This document shows, in pieces, positions 1 through 12,183 of a stretch of DNA of 14,514 nt. The notes beneath the pieces are model-generated. The model saw only the letters and a program-made list of their open reading frames with translations, ran no database searches and had not been told where the DNA came from. Source of the DNA: Candidatus Bathyarchaeota archaeon (GTDB lineage Archaea; Thermoproteota; Bathyarchaeia; TCS64); the NCBI GenBank assembly GCA_043826455.1, contig JBDRQD010000069.1:1-14514 (forward strand), given 5' to 3'. A program made the position numbers and the translations under genes. The number at the start of each line of letters is the position of its first letter. Within the stretch, counting starts at the first letter, position 1.

Positions 1-118
1 GGTTTCACGGTGCCTGAGATCCATTGTCGAGGGTTTCCTGGGGTGTTCTCTGGTTGAACCTGGCTGGGAGGTGGCTTATTTGCTTGTATAGAAGCACGAC
101 GTCAAGCCAGCAACACCT

Positions 119-134
119 AATTATTGAATTCCCC
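119..134 (-). repeat. Orphan IS terminal-inverted-repeat-like end (GGGGAATTCAATAATT on minus strand)
   Basis: Matches the IR at 1778-1793/3901-3916 (GGCAGACTCAATAATT) at 12 of 16 positions and abuts CGCGCGCG at 135-142. Confidence 0.45.
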
Positions 135-142
135 CGCGCGCG

Positions 143-312
143 ACAGGGACAGCTTCAGGTGTACTCGGTGTTCCTACGCTGGGGACGCTGACCACGTCGC
201 CGCTGTTAACATAGCGGCGCGTGCTAACGTCAACAGGCCTATCGTCTCGGGGAGCTTTTTTGGACATCTTGTTCCTCCTCAGGGACAAGCCTCCCTACTT
301 GTAGGGAGGTAG
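143..312 (+). pseudogene. tnpB: 3' fragment of IS200/IS605-family TnpB (zinc-ribbon half and RuvC-III region)
   Basis: Translation FRCTRCSYAGDADHVAAVNIAARANVNRP fits the TnpB C-terminal FxCxxCG..xAD.xAAxNI motif. Begins directly after the CG tract at 135-142. Confidence 0.85.
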
Positions 313-317
313 TTGAC
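284..317 (+). mobile_element. IS200/IS605 right end / omegaRNA 3' hairpin
   Basis: CAAG-CCTCCCTAC-TT-GTAGGGAGG-TAGTTGAC: 9-bp perfect stem (290-298/301-309) followed by a TGAC terminus, the usual right-end layout. Confidence 0.8.
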
Positions 318-325
318 GCTTCTGT

Positions 326-499
326 CTACTTCCTTTCAGGGTCTTTCATGGTGACGGACTTGCCATACTGATCTATGAATTCAATGCGGTTGACCCGAGA
401 ATCAAGCTTAGATATAGCCTCATCCAGTTTCTTCTCATGTTCATATAGCACGTGGATTATCAGGTCCAATACATCAATCTTCGCGGTCAGGTCACTCAT
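326..499 (-). CDS. Small coiled-coil hypothetical protein, 57 aa (not in ORF track)
   Basis: MSDLTAKIDVLDLIIHVLYEHEKKLDEAISKLDSRVNRIEFIDQYGKSVTMKDPERK*. Heptad pattern; TATA-like TTCATATAT about 25 bp upstream of the ATG, suggesting a leaderless transcript. Confidence 0.7.
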   Translation of the reverse strand: MSDLTAKIDVLDLIIHVLYEHEKKLDEAISKLDSRVNRIEFIDQYGKSVTMKDPERK

Positions 500-610
500 G
501 CTTTATCGATTAATCCCTTGATATATGAAGAATAGGGAGTACTGATCCATATTCCTTATTTGGAGCGGCTTCACCGCGGGTGAAGAATTCCAGTCCGTAA
601 CCGCGCGCGC

Positions 611-1708
611 CAGCGTGTTGCGATATTCTTGGAGTTAGCATTTCCGTGCAACAAATATCCTGGTTATGTTTAGACTCAGGTGAAGAGGGAGAAACACGAG
701 GATGTGGCATCCATCCTCTCCAAACTGGACCTCCACGACATAGAGGAGATCATCATCCAGCCATACCACCAGGAAGGCCCGGGTAGACCACCCAGAAGCC
801 CCATCGGCATCTTCAAGGCATTAGTTGTGAAGCAGCTGAGGAACATCCCCCGCGACCGGGAGCTATACAGGTGCCTCTGGAACGACGAGGCTCAGAGAGA
901 TCTGCGACATCGAGGAGCACGAGAAACCCCAGCCACCCATCCCAGCTCACAAGGTTCAGGAACCGTGTAGGCCCCGAGAGGCTTGAAGCCGTGATGAATG
1001 GCCTCCTGGAGGAGCTCGTGGAAGGAGGCATCGTTAAGGGCGAGACGCTGGCCCTGGACGCCACCTTCATCGAGGCCTGGAGCAGGCGCGACACGGCGGA
1101 CGACAGCCGCGGCCTCTCTGACCCTGAGGCACGGGTGGGCAGGGACGGCAAATCCTATGACCTGGGGTACAAGGCTCACGTGGCTATGGATGTGGGGTCC
1201 GATATGCCTGTGGCTGTGGTGGGGGCCTCGGCCAACGAGAACGAGAAGAAGCACTTGGAGACGCTTCTGGGCAAGGCTTCCGCGGTGGTTGAGGAGGTTA
1301 AGGCTGTGGCGGCTGATCCTCAGTACAGCAGCAGGCGTGTACGGGACTGCATCATCGGGCACGGGGCTGAGCCGGTCATACCTTACACGTCTAACCAGAG
1401 GGGCGGGGAAAAGGTGCTGAGGGTTGACAGGTGTTTCAGGGTCAGTGGGCCGGTGGAGGAGAGGAGGCTGTATGAGGTTGGTAGGGCTGCGGTGGAGAGG
1501 GTTAACTCCAGGCTAGACTCGGTGGGCTTGGAGTGCCTCAAGCTATGGGGGCTGAGGAACGCGGTGGTTCACACGCTGCTCTGCGTGGTCACGGTGCTGC
1601 TGGTGGCTGTGGCTGCTCTTCGACTGGGCAGGCCCTGGAAGGCTAGATCTTTGTCCTCGTTTTGGTGGTGATGGAGTTGACATAAACATGTAATATCGCA
1701 ACACGCTG
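611..1708 (+). mobile_element. Full-length 1098-bp IS (IS5/IS1182-like DDE) with perfect 17-bp TIRs, flanked by GCGCGCGC
   Basis: CAGCGTGTTGCGATATT (611-627) and AATATCGCAACACGCTG (1692-1708). GCGCGCGC at 603-610 and 1709-1716 may be an 8-bp TSD, but it is palindromic so could instead extend the TIR. Confidence 0.9.
680..1671 (+). pseudogene. DDE transposase (DUF772-like N-terminus plus DDE domain) with two frameshifts
   Basis: GRPPRSPIGIFKAL...DREL, HPSQLTRFRNR, LALDATFI, GYKAH, ADPQYSS, RAAVERVNSRL. Frameshifts near 890 and 930; the bridging frame 891-929 reads LREICDIEEHEKP. Confidence 0.88.
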
Positions 1709-1775
1709 GCGCGCGCCCGCTTCTTCATTTAGATGAAGTGGGCTTCGTGTAAGGTCTGGGTCTCGTGAACCCGGG

Positions 1776-1796
1776 TGAATTATTGAGTCTGCCTGC
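1776..1796 (-). repeat. 21-bp inverted repeat, copy 1 (IS-end-like GGCAGACTCAATAATTCA)
   Basis: TGAATTATTGAGTCTGCCTGC is the exact reverse complement of 3898-3918. Confidence 0.8.
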
Positions 1797-1801
1797 ACGG
1801 A

Positions 1802-2242
1802 TCAAGGGGTATCATAAATGGTAAATGTTTTTCCTCTAAGAGTTTGTAGACTGATCTTGTGTAGTTCATTTGGGACCCATGCGTTCATCAATCGAACTTC
1901 TATTTCTTTATATTGTCCCGGTTTGAGGAAAAGCTCTTCAGGCGTCATTTCTTGAACAAAAACATTGTTCACTAAACAATGGATGATCGTTACATCAACT
2001 TTCCCCGTGTTTCTGATTATAAGAGTAAGGCTTACTTTCTTATCATTAACGCTCTTAAACCATACATCTTCAATGATGAAACGTTCCTTGAAGGTTGGAA
2101 GTTTATCTAGCCTTTGAAGTTCTAGCCATCTATAAGCTGCTACGGTTGCTAACGAGGAGCAGAAAACTATAATGACAAGTAAAAGTAAAACGGAAATGAT
2201 CTCCGATATCGCCATCCTTTTATGGTAACATAGATTGTTCAT
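1802..2242 (-). CDS. Archaeal type IV pilin-like protein
   Basis: Class III signal peptide KRMA/ISEIISVLLLLVII with hydrophobic helix; ERFIIEDVWF and RNTGKVDVTI motifs resemble archaeal pilin globular domains. Confidence 0.75.
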   Translation of the reverse strand: MNNLCYHKRMAISEIISVLLLLVIIVFCSSLATVAAYRWLELQRLDKLPTFKERFIIEDVWFKSVNDKKVSLTLIIRNTGKVDVTIIHCLVNNVFVQEMTPEELFLKPGQYKEIEVRLMNAWVPNELHKISLQTLRGKTFTIYDTP

Positions 2243-2433
2243 GGCTCTGGATTAGGAAAACGTCATCATAGAATATCTGTATATCGGAGAATGGAAAAAT
2301 AATAATCTTTCTGGGGTAGTGTGCGCGCTAAATAGGTACAGGATAGTGATTGATTCACTTGAGCACTTTGGAGAGGCAGCCTCTACTCAACTGGTGCGTG
2401 TGTAAAATACTGGGAAGCTTCTCTAGGTATAGT

Positions 2434-2679
2434 TCACTTGAGGAATAGTTGCCTTGCTGATTCTATTGTGAACCAGATCCCGAAGATCATTAATGTTAAC
2501 CCTAGAACGCCTATGGGGTCTCTAGATAGTCTCAGTGTCTCTGTTGAGATGTTCATGAGGACTTCGAAGAAGGTTTGTGTTACTCCTCCCCAGTTTAGCT
2601 CAGGGTTTTGGTACATGGATAACCCTATTAGACTAATAAGCAAGCCAAAAAAAATCTTGAGGAGAATTTTTGTTTGCAT
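2434..2679 (-). CDS. Small two-TM membrane protein, 81 aa
   Basis: Two hydrophobic segments (ILLKIFFGLLISLIGL; IGVLGLTLMIFGIWF) and an AT-rich upstream region. Confidence 0.6.
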   Translation of the reverse strand: MQTKILLKIFFGLLISLIGLSMYQNPELNWGGVTQTFFEVLMNISTETLRLSRDPIGVLGLTLMIFGIWFTIESARQLFLK

Positions 2680-2770
2680 GTATAATAGGTGAATGATTGG
2701 TTATTTTAGTATTTTGTTTTATGGATTGTTAGGTAAAACTATTATATCCGACTCGACGTTTTTCTAGTCC

Positions 2771-2984
2771 TTGGGGGGTAAAGAGACCGACGAGAAGCTC
2801 GTCAGGCGAGGAGAGCTCACCCTAGACCTAGAATCCCTCAAAACCCCAGATAAGAACACGAAAACAGGGACCAAGGCGAAAGAGGACGCAGCTACCCATA
2901 GCAGACACCACCATCAAGCTCCCCGCAACAGTCCGCTACCTCTACCAGATGCCTGCCGACAGCTAGAAGGATACACCCGAATCT
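2771..2984 (+). pseudogene. Degraded 5' fragment of an archaeal IS5-family transposase
   Basis: Across frames: EKLVRRGELTLDLESL...GERGRSY...DTTIKLPATVRYLYQMP.RQLEGYTR, resembling IS5-family N-termini. Truncated at CGCGCACGCA (2985-2994). Confidence 0.7.
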
Positions 2985-2994
2985 CGCGCACGCA

Positions 2995-3163
2995 GATCCG
3001 TCGTACTCCAGTGCATCCACCTGCTTGACCCGCTTCGCCACTCACCCATCAGCCTCTCAACTAGGCTGTTCGTACAGGGCACGCTTAGGCCTTTCATAAC
3101 CAGCCTGGCGAGGTTCTCCTAGAGCCCGGTGTTCTCCTCTTGGAGCCGGGCGCAGGTCTCCAA
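2995..3163 (-). pseudogene. Internally deleted ISH6-like (Mutator/IS256 superfamily) transposase
   Basis: TTG start just after the DUF2080 stop; a short N-terminus is fused to LARLVMKGLSVPCTNSLVERLMGE/AKRVK/RWMHWST (frameshifted), matching the ISH6-type C-terminal catalytic-E region. Confidence 0.7.
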
Positions 3164-3164
3164 G

Positions 3165-3323
3165 TCATTCCTTGCAGACTACCGGGTATACTGTGCGGTC
3201 CAGGTACTCTTTGCGGCAGTCCACCTTGGCTCCTGTTCCGAAGGGTGTGACCTTCTTCTGTATGAATGCGCGCGCGTCTGTGAGTGTGGTGGTTTCTCTG
3301 GTTAGCTCAACCCCCAAAGGCAT
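3165..3323 (-). CDS. DUF2080-family transposase-associated protein, 52 aa (not in ORF track)
   Basis: MPLGVELTRETTTLTDARAFIQKKVTPFGTGAKVDCRKEYLDRTVYPVVCKE*. The KKVTPFGxxAKVDCxKEY motif is DUF2080-like; lies upstream of the ISH6-like transposase. Confidence 0.8.
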   Translation of the reverse strand: MPLGVELTRETTTLTDARAFIQKKVTPFGTGAKVDCRKEYLDRTVYPVVCKE

Positions 3324-3440
3324 ATGATGTGTTTAAGTTTAACTGCAAGTGAAATACGTATAGATATATTTCGCTTTCTCCCTTTATTATGGATGCGTGA
3401 TGGAGTAGGAAACAATTTGATTCCAGGAGATATTAAAAAT

Positions 3441-3890
3441 GTGCCAACCCGTTCTAAGGGGGAAATTATTATCGGTGTTTTCGTAATTGTGGTAGCGAGT
3501 TATGATCTTTATCTTACCTTCAAGCTGTCTAATTTTTACCAGTTGCAATTACAGGGTTTTCAGGTTTCTATCGCTATCATGGTGGTTACAATTAGTTTAA
3601 TGCTATATGGGCACCTCAAAGTTAGTTATCTGGTTTCGGGTAACTACCTATTAATTTACCAGTCTTTTGGGTCTGAGAAGATTAACCTTCACGATGTGAA
3701 AGGGTTCAATGTTACTAAATTAGGTTTATTACATCAGATACTCTGGGGGTTAATCCCTACCTTTACTGTAGCTAAGGGCGTAATGATCGAGTTAAAACAA
3801 GGTAAACGAGTATTCATATCCCCGAAAGACCCGGAGGTGTTTTTAGAGCAAATTCAAACGTATATCTCCAAATTAGGTACTGATCAGTAG
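3441..3890 (+). CDS. Membrane protein with bacterial PH domain
   Basis: Two N-terminal TM helices, KINLHDVKG, and VMIEL...VFISPKDPEVFLEQI motif. GTG at 3441 with upstream AGGAG preferred over the ORF-track ATG at 3324. Confidence 0.7.
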   Translation: MPTRSKGEIIIGVFVIVVASYDLYLTFKLSNFYQLQLQGFQVSIAIMVVTISLMLYGHLKVSYLVSGNYLLIYQSFGSEKINLHDVKGFNVTKLGLLHQILWGLIPTFTVAKGVMIELKQGKRVFISPKDPEVFLEQIQTYISKLGTDQ

Positions 3891-3897
3891 AGCACGC

Positions 3898-3918
3898 GCA
3901 GGCAGACTCAATAATTCA
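3898..3918 (+). repeat. 21-bp inverted repeat, copy 2
   Basis: GCAGGCAGACTCAATAATTCA, preceded by the alternating tract GCACGCGCA. Confidence 0.8.
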
Positions 3919-4099
3919 TGAGGTTTATTGGGGGCCTCGAATCCGCGGCGTACGCGTGCAAATAGGAGGGTCTTCTTACGACCATCCGATAAACTCCAAA
4001 CCTTACTCATGTAACCAGAAGCCTCAGAGGAGAGTTTGTTTGAGGATGTAGCTTTTCTACGTAGCTTGTGACTCCCAGCGTTGAGTTGAGGCCTCCTGC

Positions 4100-5557
4100 T
4101 TAACATAGGAATAAGAATAGCCAAAGCGGAACAAAGATTAGCCTTCCTTCCAGTTTCAAATCATTTCTTGTAACCACAAAGCCGATGGGGGGCTCGTGCC
4201 TCTCAATGAACTCGTGTACACCGACTAGCTCTGACTCTGAGACCCTTTCCTGATACTTTACCTCAATAGGTATAGGTTTTTTGAAGAGCTCAACCACGAT
4301 ATTCACTTCATTGCTTTTTTTATCGCTCCAGTGGAAGATGGTCGAGTCTAGTTCGTGCTCCAGTTCGAACTTGAGTCTTCTACAATGGTCGGCTACCACG
4401 TTCTCTGTTACTAACCTCATCTGCTCTGGGAGGCTTATGATATTGGGGTTAAGGAACCCTGTTACCGCGTTTCTCAGACCAACATCGTTTATGTATATCT
4501 TTTTTTCCTTCAGCTCCTGGCTTCGACGGCTACGAGTGTAGAACCTGGCCTCTGTAATCAGGAAAGAGTGCTCCAAATAGAGGAGGTAGTCTTTCAGAGT
4601 CTCTTTCCGGATCCCCAGCTCCCTTATCAGAGTTGAGTAGTTTAAACGGCGGGAACACTCACTCGCCAGAACCGTGAAAAGGGTCTCAAAGGACCGGGGG
4701 TCGCGGATCAGGAACGTCTTTACAATATCTCTGTAGATCGTTTGGTCCAGGTAATCTCTTAGGGTGTTTGTGACTTTGTACACGTCTTCTGTTTCTATGA
4801 GCTCAGGGTATCCGCCCTTCATCAGGTATTGCTGAAGATATATGAGCAGTTGGTCTCTCTCTGACGCTAACCTTTGGTTTAATAGGTTAAAAGCCTGATA
4901 AATTAAGCTAGGAGACCCGCTTCTAATTGAGGCGACCAGCGCTCCTGTAAGGGCCCTGTTAATCTCATCGTATTTCTCGTGGTCTTTCTCTTTGAACCTT
5001 ACAACTTCAAGGTACTTCATTGGGCGGATGATTTGAGGGTGGAAGCATCCTGCAAGGGTTTCAGTGTTTTCCCGCCGTAGGGTGACGCTTGATGAACTGG
5101 ATACCGTGAACTTTATCTTGTAGCCGAAGTCGAGCCACTGCTTCATGGTATCCCCCCATTCAGGTAGGCTTTGTATCTCGTCGAGGAATATGTAGATTGG
5201 TTCATCTAGTTTCTCTAGAGGTGTTCTTAGAATGTTTGTCGAGTATAATTCGAATATTCTTTTAATGCTTTCTTCATCTACTTTGAGGTAGTAGTCGTCG
5301 ACCTTCAGGAACATCACTCTTGAGGAATCGACTCTTTCTAGGAGGTGCTGGACTAGTTGATACATCAAGGTGCTTTTTCCGGTCCTTCTAGCGCCGATGA
5401 GTCCCAGGATATCTTTTGTGTTTAGACTCTCTTTGAGGACATGAAAATCTCTTCTTCGATGGCTTGGCGCCAGGGTTTCAGGGACTTTCTCTGTGGTCCA
5501 CCATGGGTTATGTTGTCTCAATATTCTAAGCAAGTCAGCGTCAGTTATCATGGACAT
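4100..5557 (-). CDS. AAA_14 ATPase with DUF4143 / PD-(D/E)xK-like C-terminus
   Basis: NPWW, Walker A GARRTGKST, Walker B IFLDEIQ, GGYPE, KKIYINDVGLRN, PIEVKY. ATG at 5557 preferred over TTG at 5641. Confidence 0.9.
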   Translation of the reverse strand: MSMITDADLLRILRQHNPWWTTEKVPETLAPSHRRRDFHVLKESLNTKDILGLIGARRTGKSTLMYQLVQHLLERVDSSRVMFLKVDDYYLKVDEESIKRIFELYSTNILRTPLEKLDEPIYIFLDEIQSLPEWGDTMKQWLDFGYKIKFTVSSSSSVTLRRENTETLAGCFHPQIIRPMKYLEVVRFKEKDHEKYDEINRALTGALVASIRSGSPSLIYQAFNLLNQRLASERDQLLIYLQQYLMKGGYPELIETEDVYKVTNTLRDYLDQTIYRDIVKTFLIRDPRSFETLFTVLASECSRRLNYSTLIRELGIRKETLKDYLLYLEHSFLITEARFYTRSRRSQELKEKKIYINDVGLRNAVTGFLNPNIISLPEQMRLVTENVVADHCRRLKFELEHELDSTIFHWSDKKSNEVNIVVELFKKPIPIEVKYQERVSESELVGVHEFIERHEPPIGFVVTRNDLKLEGRLIFVPLWLFLFLC

Positions 5558-5718
5558 GGTCCATCCTTGGCTATCATAGCAGCCAAACAACCATATAATT
5601 TTGGCTACTATAATAGCTAGGTGGGTGGATGAATTGGGCAATCATGATAGCCTACTATTTGAATATGTTTTGATGGGTACAGCCTGCTCGGGAGAACGGT
5701 GTCTACGCGCGCGCGTAC

Positions 5719-5808
5719 TTGAGGACACACCGGTGCCCCATGTGTGGCTTAACCGTTGGCAGGGATGTTGACGCGGCGCTCAACGTCCTCAGGCGGAGGC
5801 TTGGGTAG
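5719..5808 (+). pseudogene. tnpB: Second TnpB 3' fragment (not in ORF track)
   Basis: LRTHRCPMCGLTVGRDVDAALNVLRRRLG* fits RxHxCPxCG..DRDxNAAxNIL. Starts just after (CG)5 at 5706-5715. Confidence 0.85.
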
Positions 5809-5924
5809 GCTTAGCGAGCCGAGTATACGCCTGTAGGAGAGGTGGCCGCTACCCAACTAAGCGAAGCTGGGCAAGTCGCCTCGGTGAGTCAGGAAGCCAC
5901 CAAGTCTGTTGGGTGGTGGTTCAC
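5809..5924 (+). ncRNA. Putative omegaRNA (reRNA) scaffold / IS605 right end
   Basis: GCCGAGTATACGCCTGTAGGAG...CTCGGTGAGTCAGGAAGCCACC-hairpin-GGTGGTGGTTCAC, with a TCAC terminus, following the tnpB fragment. Confidence 0.7.
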
Positions 5925-6009
5925 CAAAACGATATTAGCCAGTGTTCCCCATCTCTAACGGAGGGTTGCTGGCTGATCCTCGACATACTGGGGCTGGGAT
6001 GATTCGTTT

Positions 6010-6231
6010 ATGCCTAGGATAAGGAGAAAGAAGAGGACGGTCTCTATGAACATCAGGGTGACTCCGGAGATCAAGGACGCGATCGACAACGCCTCGGCAC
6101 GGGAGTGGCTGTCTGTCTCCGATTGGATCAGGAGCACCGTCGTCAAGGCGCTCCGAGCCAGGGACCTGCTGCCGGCGACGTATTTTCTACCGGAGATCGA
6201 TGAGACGGGCAGCGGAAACGATAGATTGTAG
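6010..6231 (+). CDS. Ribbon-helix-helix DNA-binding protein
   Basis: RTVSMNIRVTPEIKDAIDNAS...LSVSDWIRSTV beta-alpha-alpha pattern. Confidence 0.75.
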   Translation: MPRIRRKKRTVSMNIRVTPEIKDAIDNASAREWLSVSDWIRSTVVKALRARDLLPATYFLPEIDETGSGNDRL

Positions 6232-6321
6232 CTTCTCTGCGGCTGGTTTCACTTGTTTCTAGTTAAGTGGCAGGTGAACGGGTTTCATATTCTTATTAAA
6301 TGATTTATCATTCTTTTAGCA

Positions 6322-6329
6322 TTTTTAAC
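6322..6329 (+). promoter_or_regulatory. Putative TATA box of the pilin gene
   Basis: TTTTTAAC in an AT-rich tract, predicting a TSS near 6350. Confidence 0.5.
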
Positions 6330-6350
6330 ATATCCATGGCAAAAATAAGT

Positions 6351-6455
6351 GCCTGTATCTCTTGACCGCCACTTGTATGCCATATTACCCACAGTTGGGG
6401 GTCAAGTGATGCCTCGATAGAGGGAAGTGTGGGGGACGGCCCCCTATTATACAGG
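6351..6455 (+). ncRNA. Candidate structured 5'-leader RNA of the pilin mRNA
   Basis: Closing stem GCCTGTAT/ATACAGGC, inner stem CTTGACC/GGTCAAG with extension, and hairpins CCTC-GATA-GAGG and GGGG-ACGG-CCCC. Confidence 0.55.
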
Positions 6456-6463
6456 CGAAAAAA

Positions 6464-7366
6464 ATGAAAAATAGAGTAACAAACAGAAAAGCCGTAAGCC
6501 CAGTGATAGCCACGCTGCTGATGATCGCCGTCGCAGTCGCGGCTTCAGTGGTCATGTACTCATGGGTTAACTCCATGGTAAAAAGCCAGGCAACACAATC
6601 GCAGACAGCGATAAGGATAGACCAGGTACAGTTCTTCAACTACAAAGACACCATGCAGATATCAGTTTCTGTTAGAAACACGGGCACAACTGGGGCCGTA
6701 ATACAGACACTCTACATATACAGAGCGGACGCCCAGATTGCGAAAGTGGACAAAGTTAACATGGCTGTCCCGGCCGGAGTGTTAAGCACCTTCGGATTCA
6801 CCACAGCCCAAGCGGTTGGTGGAGCGCAGCAATGGTATGCTGAACCCGTAGATGCTACTAACCAGATCACGTTGCCGGCTGGGGAGCTTAAAACCTCATC
6901 TGCCTACATGATTCGAATGGTGACGGATAATGGCTTCTCAGTCGAAGGAACCTACTACACGCCAAACAACTTCCCAGGCGCACTACACCACTTCACCTTT
7001 GCCGCAGACGGGCAACCAAGTACATATACGATAAACGACCGCGCCGCCCTTTGGAGTTTCAAAGTAACTGCTATGGACTATTACGAGAAACCCGTCGTAT
7101 TGTGGACCGGCACACTCCCCACAACCAAATCCGTCAGTGTAATACTAAATCCACCGACTGGTGCATCACTAGCCGCTCAGACAATAACTGCTTCTGAACG
7201 TACTTGGACTTGGCTAGATGGTGTTGGCACATTCACGGTCGCAGCTACTATAAGGTTGAGCCCTGAGCCTGCAGCTGGAACTGGCTACACTATAACGGTA
7301 GTCTCCAGTGCAGACACTGGCAACAGAGGTAGTCAGAACTGCGCGACCTTTAAAGTCCTAAGCTAG
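6464..7366 (+). CDS. Archaeal type IV pilin with C-terminal beta-rich extension
   Basis: RKA/VSPVIATLLMIAVAVAASVVMY class III signal; VRNTG and TDNGF..EGTYY motifs, followed by about 130 aa of Thr-rich extra domain. Confidence 0.9.
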   Translation: MKNRVTNRKAVSPVIATLLMIAVAVAASVVMYSWVNSMVKSQATQSQTAIRIDQVQFFNYKDTMQISVSVRNTGTTGAVIQTLYIYRADAQIAKVDKVNMAVPAGVLSTFGFTTAQAVGGAQQWYAEPVDATNQITLPAGELKTSSAYMIRMVTDNGFSVEGTYYTPNNFPGALHHFTFAADGQPSTYTINDRAALWSFKVTAMDYYEKPVVLWTGTLPTTKSVSVILNPPTGASLAAQTITASERTWTWLDGVGTFTVAATIRLSPEPAAGTGYTITVVSSADTGNRGSQNCATFKVLS

Positions 7367-7385
7367 GCTTACGGATTAACCGTGA

Positions 7386-7402
7386 CTCTTTCCCCCTTTT
7401 TT
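7386..7402 (+). terminator. Pyrimidine/U-rich archaeal terminator-like tract
   Basis: CTCTTTCCCCCTTTTTT about 20 bp after the pilin stop; GGTGAGGTGA Shine-Dalgarno follows for the next gene. Confidence 0.5.
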
Positions 7403-7436
7403 AAAAAAATATCAAACTCAGGTGAGGTGAGAACAA

Positions 7437-8327
7437 GTGTCGGATAACAGGAGACGAAGGGAGACCAGCGACGCCATAGAGGAAACCTTCAGCAGGTACG
7501 CCTCCGAGGACAGGCAGCCACAGCTCCCAACCATCGAATCCGACGAACCCACCCCACAGGGCAAACCCTCAGCGCCCCTCAAGGAACAGGAAAAACCGGG
7601 CCAACCATCCCACTACCCCACGAACATACCTGGACTGGATGACCTCCTGGGAGGCGGCCTGCCCAACGGCGGCCTAATACAGATCATAGGCACCATAGGG
7701 TCAGGGTACACCACCTTCATCAACCAGATCCTCATCAACCACCTAAACAACGGCGGAAAAGCCGCGTACTACACCACCGAGACATCCAGCTACAACGTGC
7801 AGCAGGAGATGGCCGTCTACGGCTGGAGCCTGAACAGGTTCATCCAGAACGGAAACCTCGTATTCATCAACGTCCTCACCCCCGACCTCCAGCAGCTGGC
7901 GGAGCTGGCTCCTGAGAGCTTCAGCAAGCTACGCGTCACCCTCAGCGAATCCCTGACGGCGCTGAAGACGGATCTGCTGGGTAAGATCAAGGAGAACCGG
8001 TGGGCGGTGCTTGACCTGAGCCACATCCTTCACACATATAGTTTGAATGAGGTGGTGGGGCTGATGATGTACTGGAGGGCGACGGTACGCGCCTTCGGCG
8101 GCGTAGGCTTCGCTGTATTGCCCAGCGGCGTTCACGATGACAAGCTTGTGAATGCTTTGAAGAACATCGTGGACGGTGTCCTGGAGTTTGGTCTCCGTGA
8201 GGGCACCTTGGAGTATGGTGGCTCGTTGATAGTGCAGAAGCTTCTGGGTATGCGGTCCGCTAAGAGGGTCTCGTACAGTCTGCGGGAAGAAGGAATAATA
8301 GTAGAAACCGCCATGAGAATAAGATAA
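7437..8327 (+). CDS. KaiC/RAD55-like RecA-fold protein with degenerate Walker motifs
   Basis: PTNIPGLDDLLGGGLP, GTIGSGYTT, YYTTE, VDGVLEF, IVQKL, GIIVETAMRI; Pro/Glu-rich N-terminal extension. Confidence 0.88.
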   Translation: MSDNRRRRETSDAIEETFSRYASEDRQPQLPTIESDEPTPQGKPSAPLKEQEKPGQPSHYPTNIPGLDDLLGGGLPNGGLIQIIGTIGSGYTTFINQILINHLNNGGKAAYYTTETSSYNVQQEMAVYGWSLNRFIQNGNLVFINVLTPDLQQLAELAPESFSKLRVTLSESLTALKTDLLGKIKENRWAVLDLSHILHTYSLNEVVGLMMYWRATVRAFGGVGFAVLPSGVHDDKLVNALKNIVDGVLEFGLREGTLEYGGSLIVQKLLGMRSAKRVSYSLREEGIIVETAMRIR

Positions 8328-8330
8328 ACC
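8062..8330 (+). repeat. Direct repeat copy 1 (kaiC-like 3' end)
   Basis: About 95% identical to 10120-10388 (about 13 differences counted by eye, no indels). Confidence 0.95.
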
Positions 8331-8407
8331 CCCCCTTTAGAAGGTTTCAACTACGCCTTCACTCAGCTTGCTCATCGGATGATATTTCGAGGTCGCCCTC
8401 AATGACC

Positions 8408-9343
8408 TTACCCGAGACCGTTAACTACTTTCAAGATGAACTCGTTAAATGATTCCAAGAACTCGTAGAACTCGGTCTCATCGATTTCTTCGAGTAAAAG
8501 CCCACGCTCCTCTCCCCACGTGAAAGGCTCTGCCCCGAGGACGGCTTTCCTAGCATCCAGGTTACGGCGGTACTTTTCATACAGCCCGAGCGTGAACTGT
8601 ATCTTCTCCATTGCCTGGTCAAGCACATCGTCAGGCTTAACTCCGAACCGCTTTCCGATGACATATACGTCCACATAATCACGCGCCTTGACGCCACTGC
8701 GCGTGAGAATCGAACGTATCTTCTCGGCAAGCATCTCCCGAACCTCATATGCCTTGAAAGGGATTGCCTGAAGATAATCGGACTGCTCAGGGAAGAGAAG
8801 CCCCATCTCTCGCTTCGTACGAGCATCCGCACCTGTCAACAGGCTCTGCAACATAATCGTTTCAGGGGGGTACAGCAGCTTCTCCACGAAGTTGACCTGA
8901 ACCTTGATGAAGCTCCTCCATCTAAGGGCCTCGGAGTCGTACCACAGCTTGAAGGTGCATATCTTGTCGCTCCCGCCTAGCTCAACATAGTTCCTGTCGC
9001 GCTTGGCACACCTGAAGTCGAAGCCGCGCCGAGCCGATATCTCCTCGAATAACCCTCCCGCATCGTCTATGAGGGTGGACAGGTACCGGCGCATCTCCTT
9101 CCCGGATTTGCCTTCGTAGACGGACTGGTCGCGCCACGTAAAGTCGACGTCCTCGGAGAAGCGGAAGTAGCCGATGTAGCCTTTGATCAGGCATGTCCCG
9201 CCCTTGAACAGGAAGCTATCCGAGAAGAAGAGGTCTGATGAAAGGTCGGCAAGTATCTGGTGCAGCAGCAGGTCCTTCTCGATCAGGTCGGCCCTCTTGA
9301 CGCCTGTCCTCTTCGATACCTCGTTGACGAAAGGCAGCCTCAA
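8408..9343 (-). CDS. abiEii: AbiEii/AbiGii-family nucleotidyltransferase toxin (type IV TA)
   Basis: LIEKD, FKGGTCL, RFSEDVDF, EKIRSIL, KARDYVD motifs. Probable TTG start at 9343 overlapping the antitoxin TGA, with GGAGG upstream. Confidence 0.92.
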   Translation of the reverse strand: MRLPFVNEVSKRTGVKRADLIEKDLLLHQILADLSSDLFFSDSFLFKGGTCLIKGYIGYFRFSEDVDFTWRDQSVYEGKSGKEMRRYLSTLIDDAGGLFEEISARRGFDFRCAKRDRNYVELGGSDKICTFKLWYDSEALRWRSFIKVQVNFVEKLLYPPETIMLQSLLTGADARTKREMGLLFPEQSDYLQAIPFKAYEVREMLAEKIRSILTRSGVKARDYVDVYVIGKRFGVKPDDVLDQAMEKIQFTLGLYEKYRRNLDARKAVLGAEPFTWGEERGLLLEEIDETEFYEFLESFNEFILKVVNGLG

Positions 9344-9969
9344 CTCATCGCCTCCACTATGCCGCGCACCGTCTTCGGGTAGTAGCCAGAGTACTCGCGT
9401 AAACGGTCCTTCGACAGTCTTTCCGACCATTCCGTAAGATCCAGCAGGATTCTCTCTCTCGGTACCCCGTTGTACCGCCAAGTATAAACAAAGTCGAGCA
9501 CGGTCTTCTCCGGGTCAGAGTACCGTATACCCTCAGCCTTAATTCCGAACCCGAAGAGCCTCGGCGCAAGTTTCAGGAACCTGAACCTGTAGCCGGCTAT
9601 GTTGATGGGCTTCGCCCTGAACATGCTGTCGCTGACTACATAGTCTACGGAGAAGTGCTCGTGGGTCATGTTGTTCAGCTTCAGAGCGGTGTATAGACCA
9701 AAGTACCAGTTCTCTACGCCTTTCAGCCCCAGCCCCTTCGCCACAAGCTCAAGATGCGTGTAACGGGACTTTCCAAGCTCCTCCTCTTCCAGCGATTTTA
9801 AGTAGAATACGCCTCGGAATACTCGAACCAGGTGACTGTGAGCGGTGAGATACCTGACTGTGGCTGTGTAGTCGACGCCCATCGCTTCGCAATAGCGTTT
9901 GAGCTCGTCGTTCTTAACGAATTCTTTCCCGTCGATGCGGAGCTTTTTCAGCAGCAGAGGCACCGTCAT
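9340..9969 (-). CDS. abiEi: AbiEi-like antitoxin / transcriptional regulator
   Basis: wHTH-like LVRVFRGVFY, WYFGLYTAL, YSDPEKTVLD motifs; translationally coupled to abiEii. Confidence 0.85.
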   Translation of the reverse strand: MTVPLLLKKLRIDGKEFVKNDELKRYCEAMGVDYTATVRYLTAHSHLVRVFRGVFYLKSLEEEELGKSRYTHLELVAKGLGLKGVENWYFGLYTALKLNNMTHEHFSVDYVVSDSMFRAKPINIAGYRFRFLKLAPRLFGFGIKAEGIRYSDPEKTVLDFVYTWRYNGVPRERILLDLTEWSERLSKDRLREYSGYYPKTVRGIVEAMS

Positions 9970-9970
9970 T

Positions 9971-10015
9971 TATATCACATTATACCACATTTTGGTATAT
10001 TATGATATATATCAT
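9971..10015 (-). promoter_or_regulatory. AbiE promoter/operator inverted repeat
   Basis: TATATCA-CAT-TATACCA-CATTT-TGGTATA-TTA-TGATATA (9971-10009) plus overlapping palindrome ATGATATATATCAT (10002-10015). Confidence 0.7.
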
Positions 10016-10119
10016 TTTATACACGCGCGCGGGGTTTATCCGCCGGGCCATGGCCCTTAAGCCACTGCCTGTAGAGCCTGTCCCGCACCTGGTTGCAGAG
10101 GGCTAGGCCCGCGCGCGGT

Positions 10120-10385
10120 TGATGATGTACTGGAGGGCGACGATACGCGCCTTCGGCGGCGTAGGCTTCGCCGTACTGCCCAGCGGCGTTCACGATGACA
10201 AGCTTGTGAATGCCTTGAAGAACATCGGGGACGGTGTCCTAGAGTTCGGTCTCCGTGAGGGCACCTTGGAGTATGGTGGCTCGTTGATCGTGCAGAAGCT
10301 TCCGGGTATGAGGTCCGCTAAGAGGGTCTCGTACAGTCTGCGGGAAGAGGGAATAATAGTAGAAACCGCCATGAGAATAAAGTAA
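10120..10385 (+). pseudogene. Duplicated 3' fragment of the kaiC-like gene (direct repeat copy 2)
   Basis: Matches 8062-8327; starts just after CGCGCGCG (10110-10117); substitutions V>I, V>G, L>P, R>K. Confidence 0.92.
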
Positions 10386-10605
10386 ACCTGCTGACGCTCC
10401 TATGGACCGGTGACGAAAAGCTCATCCCGTACAACTTCAGGGTCTACGACAAGCCCATGGGAGGATCGACGAAGAGCGAAGGCTTCAGGGAGATGCTCAT
10501 GGAGGCTGAGGAGCGGGGCTTCAACCCCGACTGCGTCCTCTCCGACTGCTGGTACCCGGCCTAGACAACCTTAAGCTGCTGAGGGGCCTCGGGTGGCGGT
10601 GGCTG
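10383..10605 (+). pseudogene. Internal fragment of an IS701-family transposase (not in ORF track)
   Basis: NLLTLLWTGDEKLIPYNFRVYDKPMGGSTKSEGFREMLMEAEERGFNPDCVLSDCWY, frameshift, then GLDNLKLLRGLGWRWL. Confidence 0.8.
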
Positions 10606-10698
10606 CTCTTCGGCTGAGTAGGCCCTGGAAGGCTAGATCGTTGTCGTCATTCTGGTGGTGAGGGAGTTGACATAAACATGCAATAAAGCAACAGGCTG
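10592..10698 (+). mobile_element. Second, diverged copy of the right end of the IS at 611-1708
   Basis: Aligns without gaps to 1602-1708; TIR variant AATAAAGCAACAGGCTG, followed by GCGCGCG (10699-10705). Confidence 0.9.
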
Positions 10699-10845
10699 GC
10701 GCGCGTAGCCCCCGACCCTCGCCAGACCCCTCAACGTGTTCCTCCACCACACCCTTCTGAGGTTCATCTCGAAGTCCTCCGAACAGATAACTGAGAGGGT
10801 CTAACACATATTCTATACGTGAATGAATGTTATGACCCTCGGAAC

Positions 10846-10873
10846 GTTTTTTAACAGGTAAGACAAATCTTAC
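10846..10873 (+). promoter_or_regulatory. TA promoter with operator palindrome
   Basis: T-rich TATA-like TTTTTTAAC then GTAAGA-CAAA-TCTTAC (10858-10873) just before the ATG. Confidence 0.65.
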
Positions 10874-10878
10874 ATGAC

Positions 10879-11133
10879 ATGCTCGACGTAACCAAGATAA
10901 GCTCCAAGGGACAGATCGTCATACCCAAGCCTATAAGAGAGAGCCTGAACCTGACGGAGGGCGACAGGCTCATCGCATACGCCAGAGGAGACCTCATCAT
11001 ATTAAAAAGATTGAATGGCGGGGAGAGCATCCTCAGCCTCCTATCACAACCCACGAGGAAGAAGATGGAAGAGCTAGACATAACGAGGAAGGACGTAGAC
11101 GATGCCATCGAGTGGGCGAGAGAGCGGCCTTAA
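10879..11133 (+). CDS. vapB: AbrB/MazE/SpoVT-family antitoxin
   Basis: TKISSKGQIVIPKPIRESLNLTEGD motif, upstream of a PIN gene. Confidence 0.9.
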   Translation: MLDVTKISSKGQIVIPKPIRESLNLTEGDRLIAYARGDLIILKRLNGGESILSLLSQPTRKKMEELDITRKDVDDAIEWARERP

Positions 11134-11533
11134 AGCAGTCTTCGACACAAACATACTCGTCTCAGCTTGGTTCTGGGAGGGAAACGAGTCAAAGCTCATA
11201 GAATCCGTGGAGGAAGGCTTCATCCACGGGTACAGCTCAAAACAACTCATCGAAGAACTCTGCAGAACCCTCAGATACCCAAAATTTAATCTATCACAGG
11301 ACGAAGTAGAAATGGTACGCAGTTACTACCTGCTCTTATTCAAAATAGTCAGTCCCAAGCAAGCCATCGACATAATGCTGGAAGACCCAAGCGACAACAT
11401 GGTCCTAGAATGTGCCCTCGAAGCCGAAGCTGATTACATCGTTTCAGGGGACCATCACCTTTTAAATGTGGGTGAATTCAGAGAGGTCAAGATCGTAACG
11501 GCAGCGGAGCTACTGAAGACACTATCCGCTTGA
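11102..11533 (+). CDS. vapC: PIN-domain toxin (VapC-like)
   Basis: AVFDTNILVSA, EEL, DPSDNMVLECA, YIVSGDHHLL acidic PIN motifs. Start position uncertain. Confidence 0.92.
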   Translation: MPSSGRESGLKAVFDTNILVSAWFWEGNESKLIESVEEGFIHGYSSKQLIEELCRTLRYPKFNLSQDEVEMVRSYYLLLFKIVSPKQAIDIMLEDPSDNMVLECALEAEADYIVSGDHHLLNVGEFREVKIVTAAELLKTLSA

Positions 11534-12183
11534 ATAGTATCGCGTAACACCACATGAGATCCATTATACATACTAATATGGTGTGGGAGACACACGCATC
11601 ACGGACAGCCTCATAGGCGGAAACGTCACCAAGTCACGAAAACAACCTCCTCAAAGGCAGAGATTCATAATCGGTGACCAATCAAAGGTAACAATATGAC
11701 GAGGATAGAGCCCAAACTATACGACGAGATAAAGAAATCGAGTATGTATTTAGACGGTATGTTGAAAAGATGAAAAAGGTTTCCTGCTAGAGTATGTCCT
11801 GAGTGGTGGTTGGCTTGCCCTTAGAAACATTGGTTCTTGAGACCTACCCGTTGAATGGGCTTCTCCCGAGCTACTCTCCCGGTGTCAGTACAACCCTCGG
11901 ATTTTACCAGTAAATTTGTGTTCGATCCCCGCCGCCCTCACCCTGAGTTCAAATTGACAAAACAGAAAACATATAGTCGAAAAGAATAGCATATTCTACT
12001 TCAAGTTACTTAATTTTGACTATATCAAAGATGTTCTATAGATCTCCTAGCTGGCTAGCCCGCCACATAACATGGTCCAGGAGACCGTAATTTTGACTGG
12101 GCGAACCCGAACTGCCATGGATGTGGTCCATGAAACCGGATATGTGATTGCAGCCCGAAGCCGGCGCGCATGCTGAAAGACAT

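What the first reader, a model, noticed from the sequence alone, without database searches (positions are those of the whole stretch)
135..12169. Alternating (CG)n tracts mark most module junctions: candidate shared insertion/recombination signal
Seen: pure CG-alternating tracts at 135-142, 602-610, 1709-1716, 2323-2328, 3268-3276, 5706-5715, 10024-10031, 10110-10117, 10699-10705 and 12164-12169, plus purine-pyrimidine variants at 1794-1799, 2985-2994, 3892-3900 and 3948-3960. Seven pure tracts are at least 8 nt, against under one expected by a rough equal-frequency estimate. I saw none of 6 nt or more inside the long intact genes. They coincide with both ends of the IS5-like element, its second right end, the 5' breakpoints of both tnpB fragments, the start of the kaiC duplicate, the IS5/ISH6 fragment junction and a second TIR type. 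Inference: either several unrelated transposases share a preference for alternating purine-pyrimidine (Z-DNA-prone) targets, or a host pathway (HIP1-like recombination motif, cut-and-rejoin, or scar addition) shuffles DNA at this motif.
Basis: partly seen in the sequence, partly recalled or inferred. Interest (0 to 1): 0.85.

Follow-up and report, generated by a model that had tools for sequence, protein, structure and literature searches.

The report
GC-tipped jumping genes and their scars
The short GCGCGC runs in this archaeal DNA are real: they are the outermost letters of one family of jumping genes and the eight-letter scars left where such elements were lost or DNA was deleted, not a target shared by unrelated transposases.

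Summary
All ten pure tracts lie at the stated coordinates; 7 are ≥8 nt against 0.17 expected. The 'second TIR type' belongs to the same clade: 112 of 118 element ends carry the hexamer within one mismatch despite very different inner TIRs, and no target duplication lies outside it. Other families' ends lack it. In sister genomes 17 of 59 alignment breakpoints carry a tract (1.0 expected), nearly always in one allele only; 7 of 20 simple indels read left parent + GCGCGCGC + right parent, with no element left. Window sites 2986, 10023 and 10109 fit that register against a parent; 5707 and 3268 probably; 2323 and 12164 show no junction. So 'scar addition' is supported; shared Z-DNA targeting and a HIP1-like host motif are not. 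The chemistry (staggered cut, end joining; this genome has Ku/LigD) is inferred. The scan reported this system before in seven other windows; my paper searches listed no description.

The parts
1..141 (+). Right end of a type-2 element of the clade (inner TIR ends at 135; GCGCGC tip 136-141)
   Evidence: Identical to G000 C67 and C34 contig ends; C34 holds the transposase
142..312 (+). tnpB 3' fragment joined directly to the tip
   Evidence: PF07282, E 3.5e-5
603..1716 (+). Complete but frameshifted type-1 element: inner TIRs 611 and 1708, tips 605-610 and 1709-1714, each extended by GC; transposase pieces 680-970 and 871-1671
   Evidence: 25-nt perfect inverted repeat; PF05598 and PF01609; alignment A1
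1717..1800 (-). Remnant of a type-2 element: left inner TIR (to 1794) fused to a piece of its transposase; degenerate tip 1795-1800
   Evidence: match to L009 transposase interior
1801..3893 (.). Segment between two type-2 left ends, inverted relative to a related organism
   Evidence: I3; joints 1802-3992 and 2444-3895 on opposite strands in run X4
2321..2328 (.). Degenerate 8-mer (GTGCGCGC); possible scar, no junction shown
2986..2993 (.). 8-mer scar with one change (GCGCACGC) between fragments of two unrelated transposase genes; in neither parent
   Evidence: parents L288/L294/L289 (left) and L293/L296 (right); register
3268..3275 (.). 8-mer inside a 52-codon DUF2080 ORF (3168-3323, minus strand); probable in-frame scar
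   Evidence: PF09853; the one homologue found (50% identity) lacks it
3894..3943 (+). Type-2 left end: tip 3894-3899 (ACGCGC), inner TIR from 3900, truncated at 3943
   Evidence: L295
3944..3960 (.). Degenerate purine-pyrimidine tract at the truncation point; not in the left parent; register unclear
5707..5714 (.). 8-mer at the 5' break of the second tnpB fragment (tract 5706-5715); probable scar, no close parent found
10023..10030 (.). 8-mer scar (ACGCGCGC) where similarity to G020 stops
   Evidence: G020 aligns to 10022 and has no tract
10109..10116 (.). 8-mer scar (CCGCGCGC) in front of the kaiC-like duplicate (10117-10388); the intact copy has no tract there
10592..10704 (+). Second type-1 right end; tip 10699-10704 joined into the coding region of another element whose relatives lack the tract
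   Evidence: (L046), loose ends at 10704 in X2 and X4
12164..12169 (.). Six-nt tract 15 bases past the TFB stop codon; probably chance
   Evidence: 610 GCGCGC matches over both strands in the genome; no junction shown

Best explanation
One clade of about 1.1-1.3 kb DDE insertion sequences of Bathyarchaeia (330-aa transposase, Tn5/piggyBac-like fold), with 120-470 bp miniature derivatives, ends on both sides in GCGCGC outside a variable inner TIR (shown). The hexamer arrives with the element whatever the target was, with no target duplication outside it (shown for the junctions that could be compared). When an element is lost, alone or with neighbouring DNA, the flanks are rejoined with GCGCGCGC between them (8-bp joints without an element are shown; that an element once stood there is inferred). 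Most likely the transposase cuts the two strands at staggered positions so that tip letters stay on the donor flanks as self-complementary overhangs, which anneal through four bases and are sealed by end joining (inferred, by analogy with Tc1/mariner footprints). Old tracts are re-used as insertion sites, so mobile junk accumulates as a mosaic punctuated by tracts, as in this window (inferred).
For: Ends: in protein-selected loci plus a scan of G000, 91 of 118 ends have exact GCGCGC and 112 of 118 are within one mismatch, found with patterns that do not contain those bases. No direct repeat outside the hexamer in 97 paired elements. Tips persist in genomes with almost no scars (G063, G065, G078). 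Breakpoints: 17 of 59 (G050/G059), 17 of 39 and 12 of 38 (with G053) carry a tract, 0.7-1.0 expected; in both alleles only 0, 1 and 1 times; GCGCGC is the top hexamer. Seven of 20 distinct simple indels read left parent, 8-mer, right parent; the long allele is shared by two genomes or keeps an ORF of 160-400 codons across a breakpoint in six of them. The base next to (GC)4+ runs (A 94, C 27, T 26, G 15) matches that next to element tips (63, 19, 17, 10). Length bump at 8 in G000 (230, 50, 32, 8 for 6-9 nt). Transposase found in 7 of 10 scar-rich against 9 of 51 other genomes. G000 has Ku, LigD ligase and primase-polymerase.
Against: No clean pre-insertion allele of a simple insertion was found, so tip versus converted target is not proven. 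Three junctions keep target-like letters inside the hexamer (L043, G000 C29, L065), and several sister alleles already hold a tract (L034/C75, L365/L378, L363/L387). Abutting ends are separated by one hexamer, not two. One excision-like site has a 14-bp remnant and one a 7-bp remnant. Ku is neither necessary nor sufficient: not found in 3 of 10 scar-rich genomes, present in 4 genomes with at most one match; G078 has both Ku and transposase but one match. Those genomes are kin and incomplete. The compared regions were partly chosen for holding elements, which inflates the breakpoint share. In G000 the base next to 8-mers does not show the A bias.
Confidence: 0.72

Rival explanations
1. piggyBac-like chemistry: the element ends at the inner TIR, prefers GCGCGCGC targets, duplicates the central GCGC and carries the donor's flank as an overhang; mismatched targets are converted over repeated rounds, and excision restores an 8-mer.
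For: Fold closest to Tn5 (Z 16.6) and piggyBac (Z 14.2); 6+6-4 = 8 fits cohesive 4-nt rejoining; target-like letters kept at L043, C29 and L065; existing 8-mers re-used; mechanism in PMC7351741 (passages).
Against: Parents at many junctions share little with GCGCGC, yet 105 of 118 ends have exact CGCGC; variants are not copied as direct repeats (34 one-sided, 3 two-sided and unlike); position -6 varies (18 of 118) far more than -3 or -1 (5 and 4), against symmetric heteroduplex segregation.
Confidence: 0.15
2. A host end-joining polymerase writes GC-alternating filler at any double-strand break, including those made by transposases.
For: Complete Ku/LigD set in G000; Ku in 7 of 10 scar-rich against 5 of 51 other genomes; tracts far outnumber elements (35 orphan runs against 10 tips of 6 nt or more in a 140-kb sample of G050).
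Against: Fixed phase and length at element ends across hosts with and without Ku; seven ends of an unrelated element type and a 754-bp insertion with a 9-bp duplication carry no tract; 13 of 20 simple indels lack the 8-mer; Ku-positive genomes with 0-1 matches exist.
Confidence: 0.08
3. Several unrelated transposases share a Z-DNA-prone target, or a HIP1-like host recombination motif shuffles DNA.
For: Tracts border fragments of tnpB, kaiC-like and other transposase genes in the window.
Against: Those fragments are victims: their parents lack the tract; both TIR types are one clade; tract present in both alleles at only 2 of 136 breakpoint comparisons.
Confidence: 0.03
4. Chance or assembly artefact.
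For: Short-read MAG with 7% contamination; 2323 and 12164 may be chance.
Against: 7 against 0.17; bridged by contigs of run X1; same ends and 8-mers on single-contig chromosomes.
Confidence: 0.02

Closest known systems
IS1182-family elements, notably IS1272 of Staphylococcus (PMC5678879, passages seen)
   Same: Best NCBIfam match is NF033551; DUF772 plus DDE_Tnp_1 domains; no target duplication; target letters lost at some sites.
   Different: Below the cut-off (best 166 of 270 bits), 330 aa against a 488-position model; IS1272 replaces 21-85 bp stem-loops of unrelated sequence, whereas here a fixed hexamer marks every end and an 8-mer stays behind.
IS5-family elements (NF033581; plasmid hits annotated IS5 family at 23-33% identity)
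   Same: Size about 1.1 kb, single ORF of about 330 aa, short TIRs, miniature derivatives.
   Different: Below all IS5 cut-offs (best 121 of 140); no duplication outside the hexamer.
Tc1/mariner excision footprints (PMC6943129, passages seen)
   Same: Footprint made of terminal letters of the element, sealed by end joining: the proposed working model.
   Different: Different transposase (Mos1 Z 7.3 against Tn5 16.6); no fixed TA duplication (23 of 97 against 17.6 expected); here the overhangs would be self-complementary.
piggyBac (PMC7351741, passages seen)
   Same: Related fold; short palindrome at both ends; cohesive rejoining could give the 8-mer.
   Different: piggyBac restores a pre-existing TTAA; here the motif is mostly absent from the parent alleles.
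HIP1 of cyanobacteria (recalled; only listings seen)
   Same: An 8-bp palindrome that can become very abundant (114 AGCGCGCGCT against 3 controls in G050).
   Different: Mostly non-coding, allele-specific, patchy between related genomes and tied to a transposon.

Membership tests
IS1182 family | NCBIfam NF033551 above cut-off | tested here: not met
   0 of 10 clade proteins; best 166.4 against 270
IS1182 family | DUF772 N-terminus plus DDE_Tnp_1 catalytic domain | tested here: met
   invariant D126 and D213, E273 in at least 90%
IS1182 family | Transposase of about 450-490 aa (model length 488) | tested here: not met
   328-338 aa in intact copies
IS1182 family | Palindromic target replaced without duplication (IS1272 type) | tested here: inconclusive
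   No duplication and re-use of old 8-mers, but no clean pre-insertion allele
IS5 family | NCBIfam IS5 models above cut-off | tested here: not met
   best 121.4 against 140 for NF033581
IS5 family | Short TIRs around a single DDE ORF, about 1-1.3 kb | tested here: met
IS5 family | Target duplication of 2-9 bp (recalled) | tested here: inconclusive
   None outside the hexamer; a duplication hidden inside the invariant GC run cannot be excluded
Tc1/mariner-IS630 | TA target duplication | tested here: not met
   matching dinucleotide at both sides in 23 of 97, 17.6 by shuffling
Tc1/mariner-IS630 | Non-transferred strand cut inside the element | not testable with these tools
   needs in vitro cleavage mapping
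piggyBac-type | Motif present in the target before insertion | tested here: inconclusive
   present at some sister alleles, absent at most
HIP1-like host repeat | Spread through coding and non-coding DNA and conserved between relatives (recalled) | tested here: not met
   25 of 32 outside long ORFs; in both alleles at 2 of 136 breakpoint comparisons

The most novel reading that the evidence does not exclude
An undescribed prokaryotic IS clade writes a fixed 8-bp palindrome into DNA that never had it, at excision and deletion joints, and re-uses it as a landing site. This ratchet would turn a transposon footprint into a highly iterated palindrome (hundreds per genome in one lineage), a worked example of how such motifs can arise, and each scar would date and locate a past rearrangement.
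Probability: 0.45. Interest if true: 0.75.

Novelty: new variant of a known kind. Interest (0 to 1): 0.55.

Why it matters
Fixed, element-derived footprints are familiar in eukaryotic cut-and-paste transposons (PMC6943129) but I found no description for an archaeal IS. Here they would be a sequence-readable record of deletions and rearrangements: about 30-45% of breakpoints in the element-rich regions compared. The system offers a testable route to highly iterated palindromes, a testable role for the Ku/LigD genes of these Bathyarchaeia, and a small (330 aa) transposase with unusual end chemistry. For this window it explains the mosaic without invoking a new host recombination system.

Tried and rejected
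Metagenome scan for the type-1 end: mostly unrelated records and selected on the motif; L105-L225 were left out of all end counts. Frame test across joined flanks: 13 elements, no consistent phase. Translated flank search for empty sites: none. Loci L227 and L092 gave no empty allele in G053/G059/G062. Early models were dropped: pure target-site duplication (variants not copied; parents lack the motif) and blunt insertion in the middle of GCGCGC (fails at junctions whose parents lack both halves). TAGCGCGCGC counts over 41 genomes near G000 were too low to judge. No solved structure by sequence. The 161-end census was partly selected on CGC and was redone on protein-selected loci. No laid contig showed the empty site of the window's element. 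A GCGC-specific methyltransferase or nuclease was not searched for. Paper searches (listings only, except five papers read as passages) listed no account of these ends or scars; ISfinder and subscription journals were not searchable, and no supplements were read.
Full report
Setting. The window is the whole contig C69 of a 2.95-Mb, 81-contig archaeal MAG; relatives of its transposase come almost all from Bathyarchaeia records. It is a mosaic of IS fragments, tnpB pieces, toxin-antitoxin pairs, a kaiC-like gene with a 3' duplicate and TFB.

Observation. All ten pure tracts are at the stated positions. Seven are 8 nt or longer; 300 Markov simulations gave 0.17 on average, at most 2. The genome has 44 such tracts, 7 here; 31 of 44 lie in low-GC context that makes up 20% of the genome, and 25 of 32 (GC)4+ runs lie outside ORFs of 150 codons or more, which cover 82%. 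GCGCGCGC is seen 68 times over both strands against 9.6-30 by third- and fourth-order models, while GCGCG is depleted. Contigs of run X1 bridge 13 of the 14 sites without a difference; X1 may be the source.

One clade, not several families. The element at 603-1716 has a 25-nt inverted repeat. The 'second TIR type' sits on elements whose transposases are 31-40% identical to it; at least four further inner-TIR types exist. The proteins align with invariant D126 and D213 and a near-invariant E273, score below every NCBIfam cut-off with IS1182 then IS5 best, and fold like Tn5 (Z 16.6, rmsd 4.3, 281 aligned) and piggyBac (Z 14.2). Using inner-TIR patterns that do not include the outer bases, on loci chosen by protein plus G000, 118 distinct ends gave C/G/C/G/C at positions -5 to -1 in 113-115 cases each and G at -6 in 100. 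In 97 paired elements and miniatures there is no direct repeat outside the hexamer (best: 2-bp match 23 against 17.6, p 0.05, one of 72 tests), and variants are one-sided (34) or unlike (3).

Sister genomes. G050, G053 and G059 are about 90% identical. In 140-kb samples of G050 and G059, 17 of 59 alignment breakpoints have a tract of 6 nt or more within 10 bases (1.0 expected), never in both alleles; with G053 17 of 39 and 12 of 38. GCGCGC ranks first among all hexamers. These regions were partly chosen because they held elements. Among 20 distinct simple indels, seven read left parent, GCGCGCGC (two with one change), right parent, with no element in the short allele; the long allele is shared by two genomes or keeps a long ORF across a breakpoint in six, so the short, tract-bearing allele is derived. 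Thirteen lack the 8-mer; several of these show ordinary microhomology or a 9-bp duplication. Element ends are also joined, hexamer included, to DNA whose sister alleles lack any tract (L362 against both G050 and G059; L361, L365 against G050). The base adjoining (GC)4+ runs has the same distribution as that adjoining element tips (58% A, 17% C, 16% T, 9% G in both). AGCGCGCGCT occurs 0-114 times in 61 genomes (controls 0-8); the transposase was found in 7 of 10 genomes with 20 or more matches and 9 of 51 others, Ku in 7 of 10 and 5 of 51; these are kin and incomplete, so the association is only suggestive.

Back to the window. Six sites are tips: 136-141, 605-610, 1709-1714, 1795-1800, 3894-3899, 10699-10704. 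At 10704 the allele in G044 and in runs X2 and X4 has no tract. Three orphan sites fit the 8-mer register against a parent: 2986-2993 (neither parent has it), 10023-10030 (G020 aligns to 10022) and 10109-10116 (intact kaiC-like copy lacks it). 5707-5714 is a perfect 8-mer without a close parent; 3268-3275 lies in a DUF2080 ORF whose single homologue lacks it; 3944-3960 begins exactly where the type-2 end stops; 2323 and 12164 show no junction. The segment 1801-3893 lies between two type-2 left ends and is inverted in a relative.

Mechanism. Shown: hexamer at the ends, no outside duplication, motif absent from most parents, 8-mer joints. Inferred: a staggered cut leaves tip letters on the donor flanks, as in Tc1/mariner, whose footprints consist of terminal transposon letters sealed by end joining (PMC6943129, passages); two GCGCGC tips overlapping by four give eight. 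G000 encodes Ku, a LigD ligase-phosphoesterase and a primase-polymerase, but Ku was not found in three scar-rich genomes. Against a pure tip model: three junctions keep target-like letters, some sister alleles already hold tracts, abutting ends share one hexamer, and two excision-like sites have 7- and 14-bp remnants. A piggyBac-like carried overhang (PMC7351741, passages) remains the main rival. IS1272 of the IS1182 family replaces palindromic targets without duplication (PMC5678879, passages); IS insertions without duplication at deletions are known (10.1101/2024.06.02.596822, passages); the PrimPol IEE promotes IS excision and deletions (10.1101/2023.06.07.543989, passages).

Novelty. Nine paper searches listed no description of GCGCGC-tipped elements or their scars; ISfinder was not available. 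Seven earlier notes of this scan describe the same system in other Bathyarchaeia genomes (consulted); they are not independent support. I rate it a new variant of a known kind: the window is one more, clear instance.

Noticed in passing
G000:C48 168000-180000 (L428): Complete Ku, LigD ligase-phosphoesterase and separate primase-polymerase genes; Ku in 12 of 41 genomes searched near G000, all in its genus.
   Followed up: partly
window 8059-8330 and 10117-10388: The 3' 272 bp of the kaiC-like gene is duplicated (95%) around an AbiEi/AbiEii pair, like the repeated gene end of an integrated element.
   Followed up: no
window 1801-3893: Segment inverted relative to an organism in run X4, between two type-2 left ends.
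   Followed up: partly
L065 1038-1237 and 2336-2534: A type-1 element flanked by a 200-bp direct repeat (97.5%); its right end lacks the hexamer; the locus also begins with a 1.1-kb palindrome that may be an assembly artefact.
   Followed up: partly
G050, G048, G053, G059 (L227-L284, one search hits): Dozens of 120-470 bp miniature elements with the clade's ends.
   Followed up: partly
window 890 and 932: Other contigs in runs X1-X4 carry an insertion at 890 and a deletion at 932 relative to the window's frameshifted transposase, so other alleles of the element exist in those communities.
   Followed up: no
G000 genome-wide: Six-base palindromes (CGGCCG, AGATCT, CTCGAG, GTCGAC, CGATCG) and GCGCG are under-represented, as expected from restriction-site avoidance.
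   Followed up: no
L050, L053: Clade elements at 60-76% protein identity in contigs binned as a Patescibacteria genome: mis-binning or transfer.
   Followed up: no
window 11735-12013: A repeat shared with contigs C31, C25, C44 and others, without tracts at its ends; identity unknown.
   Followed up: no
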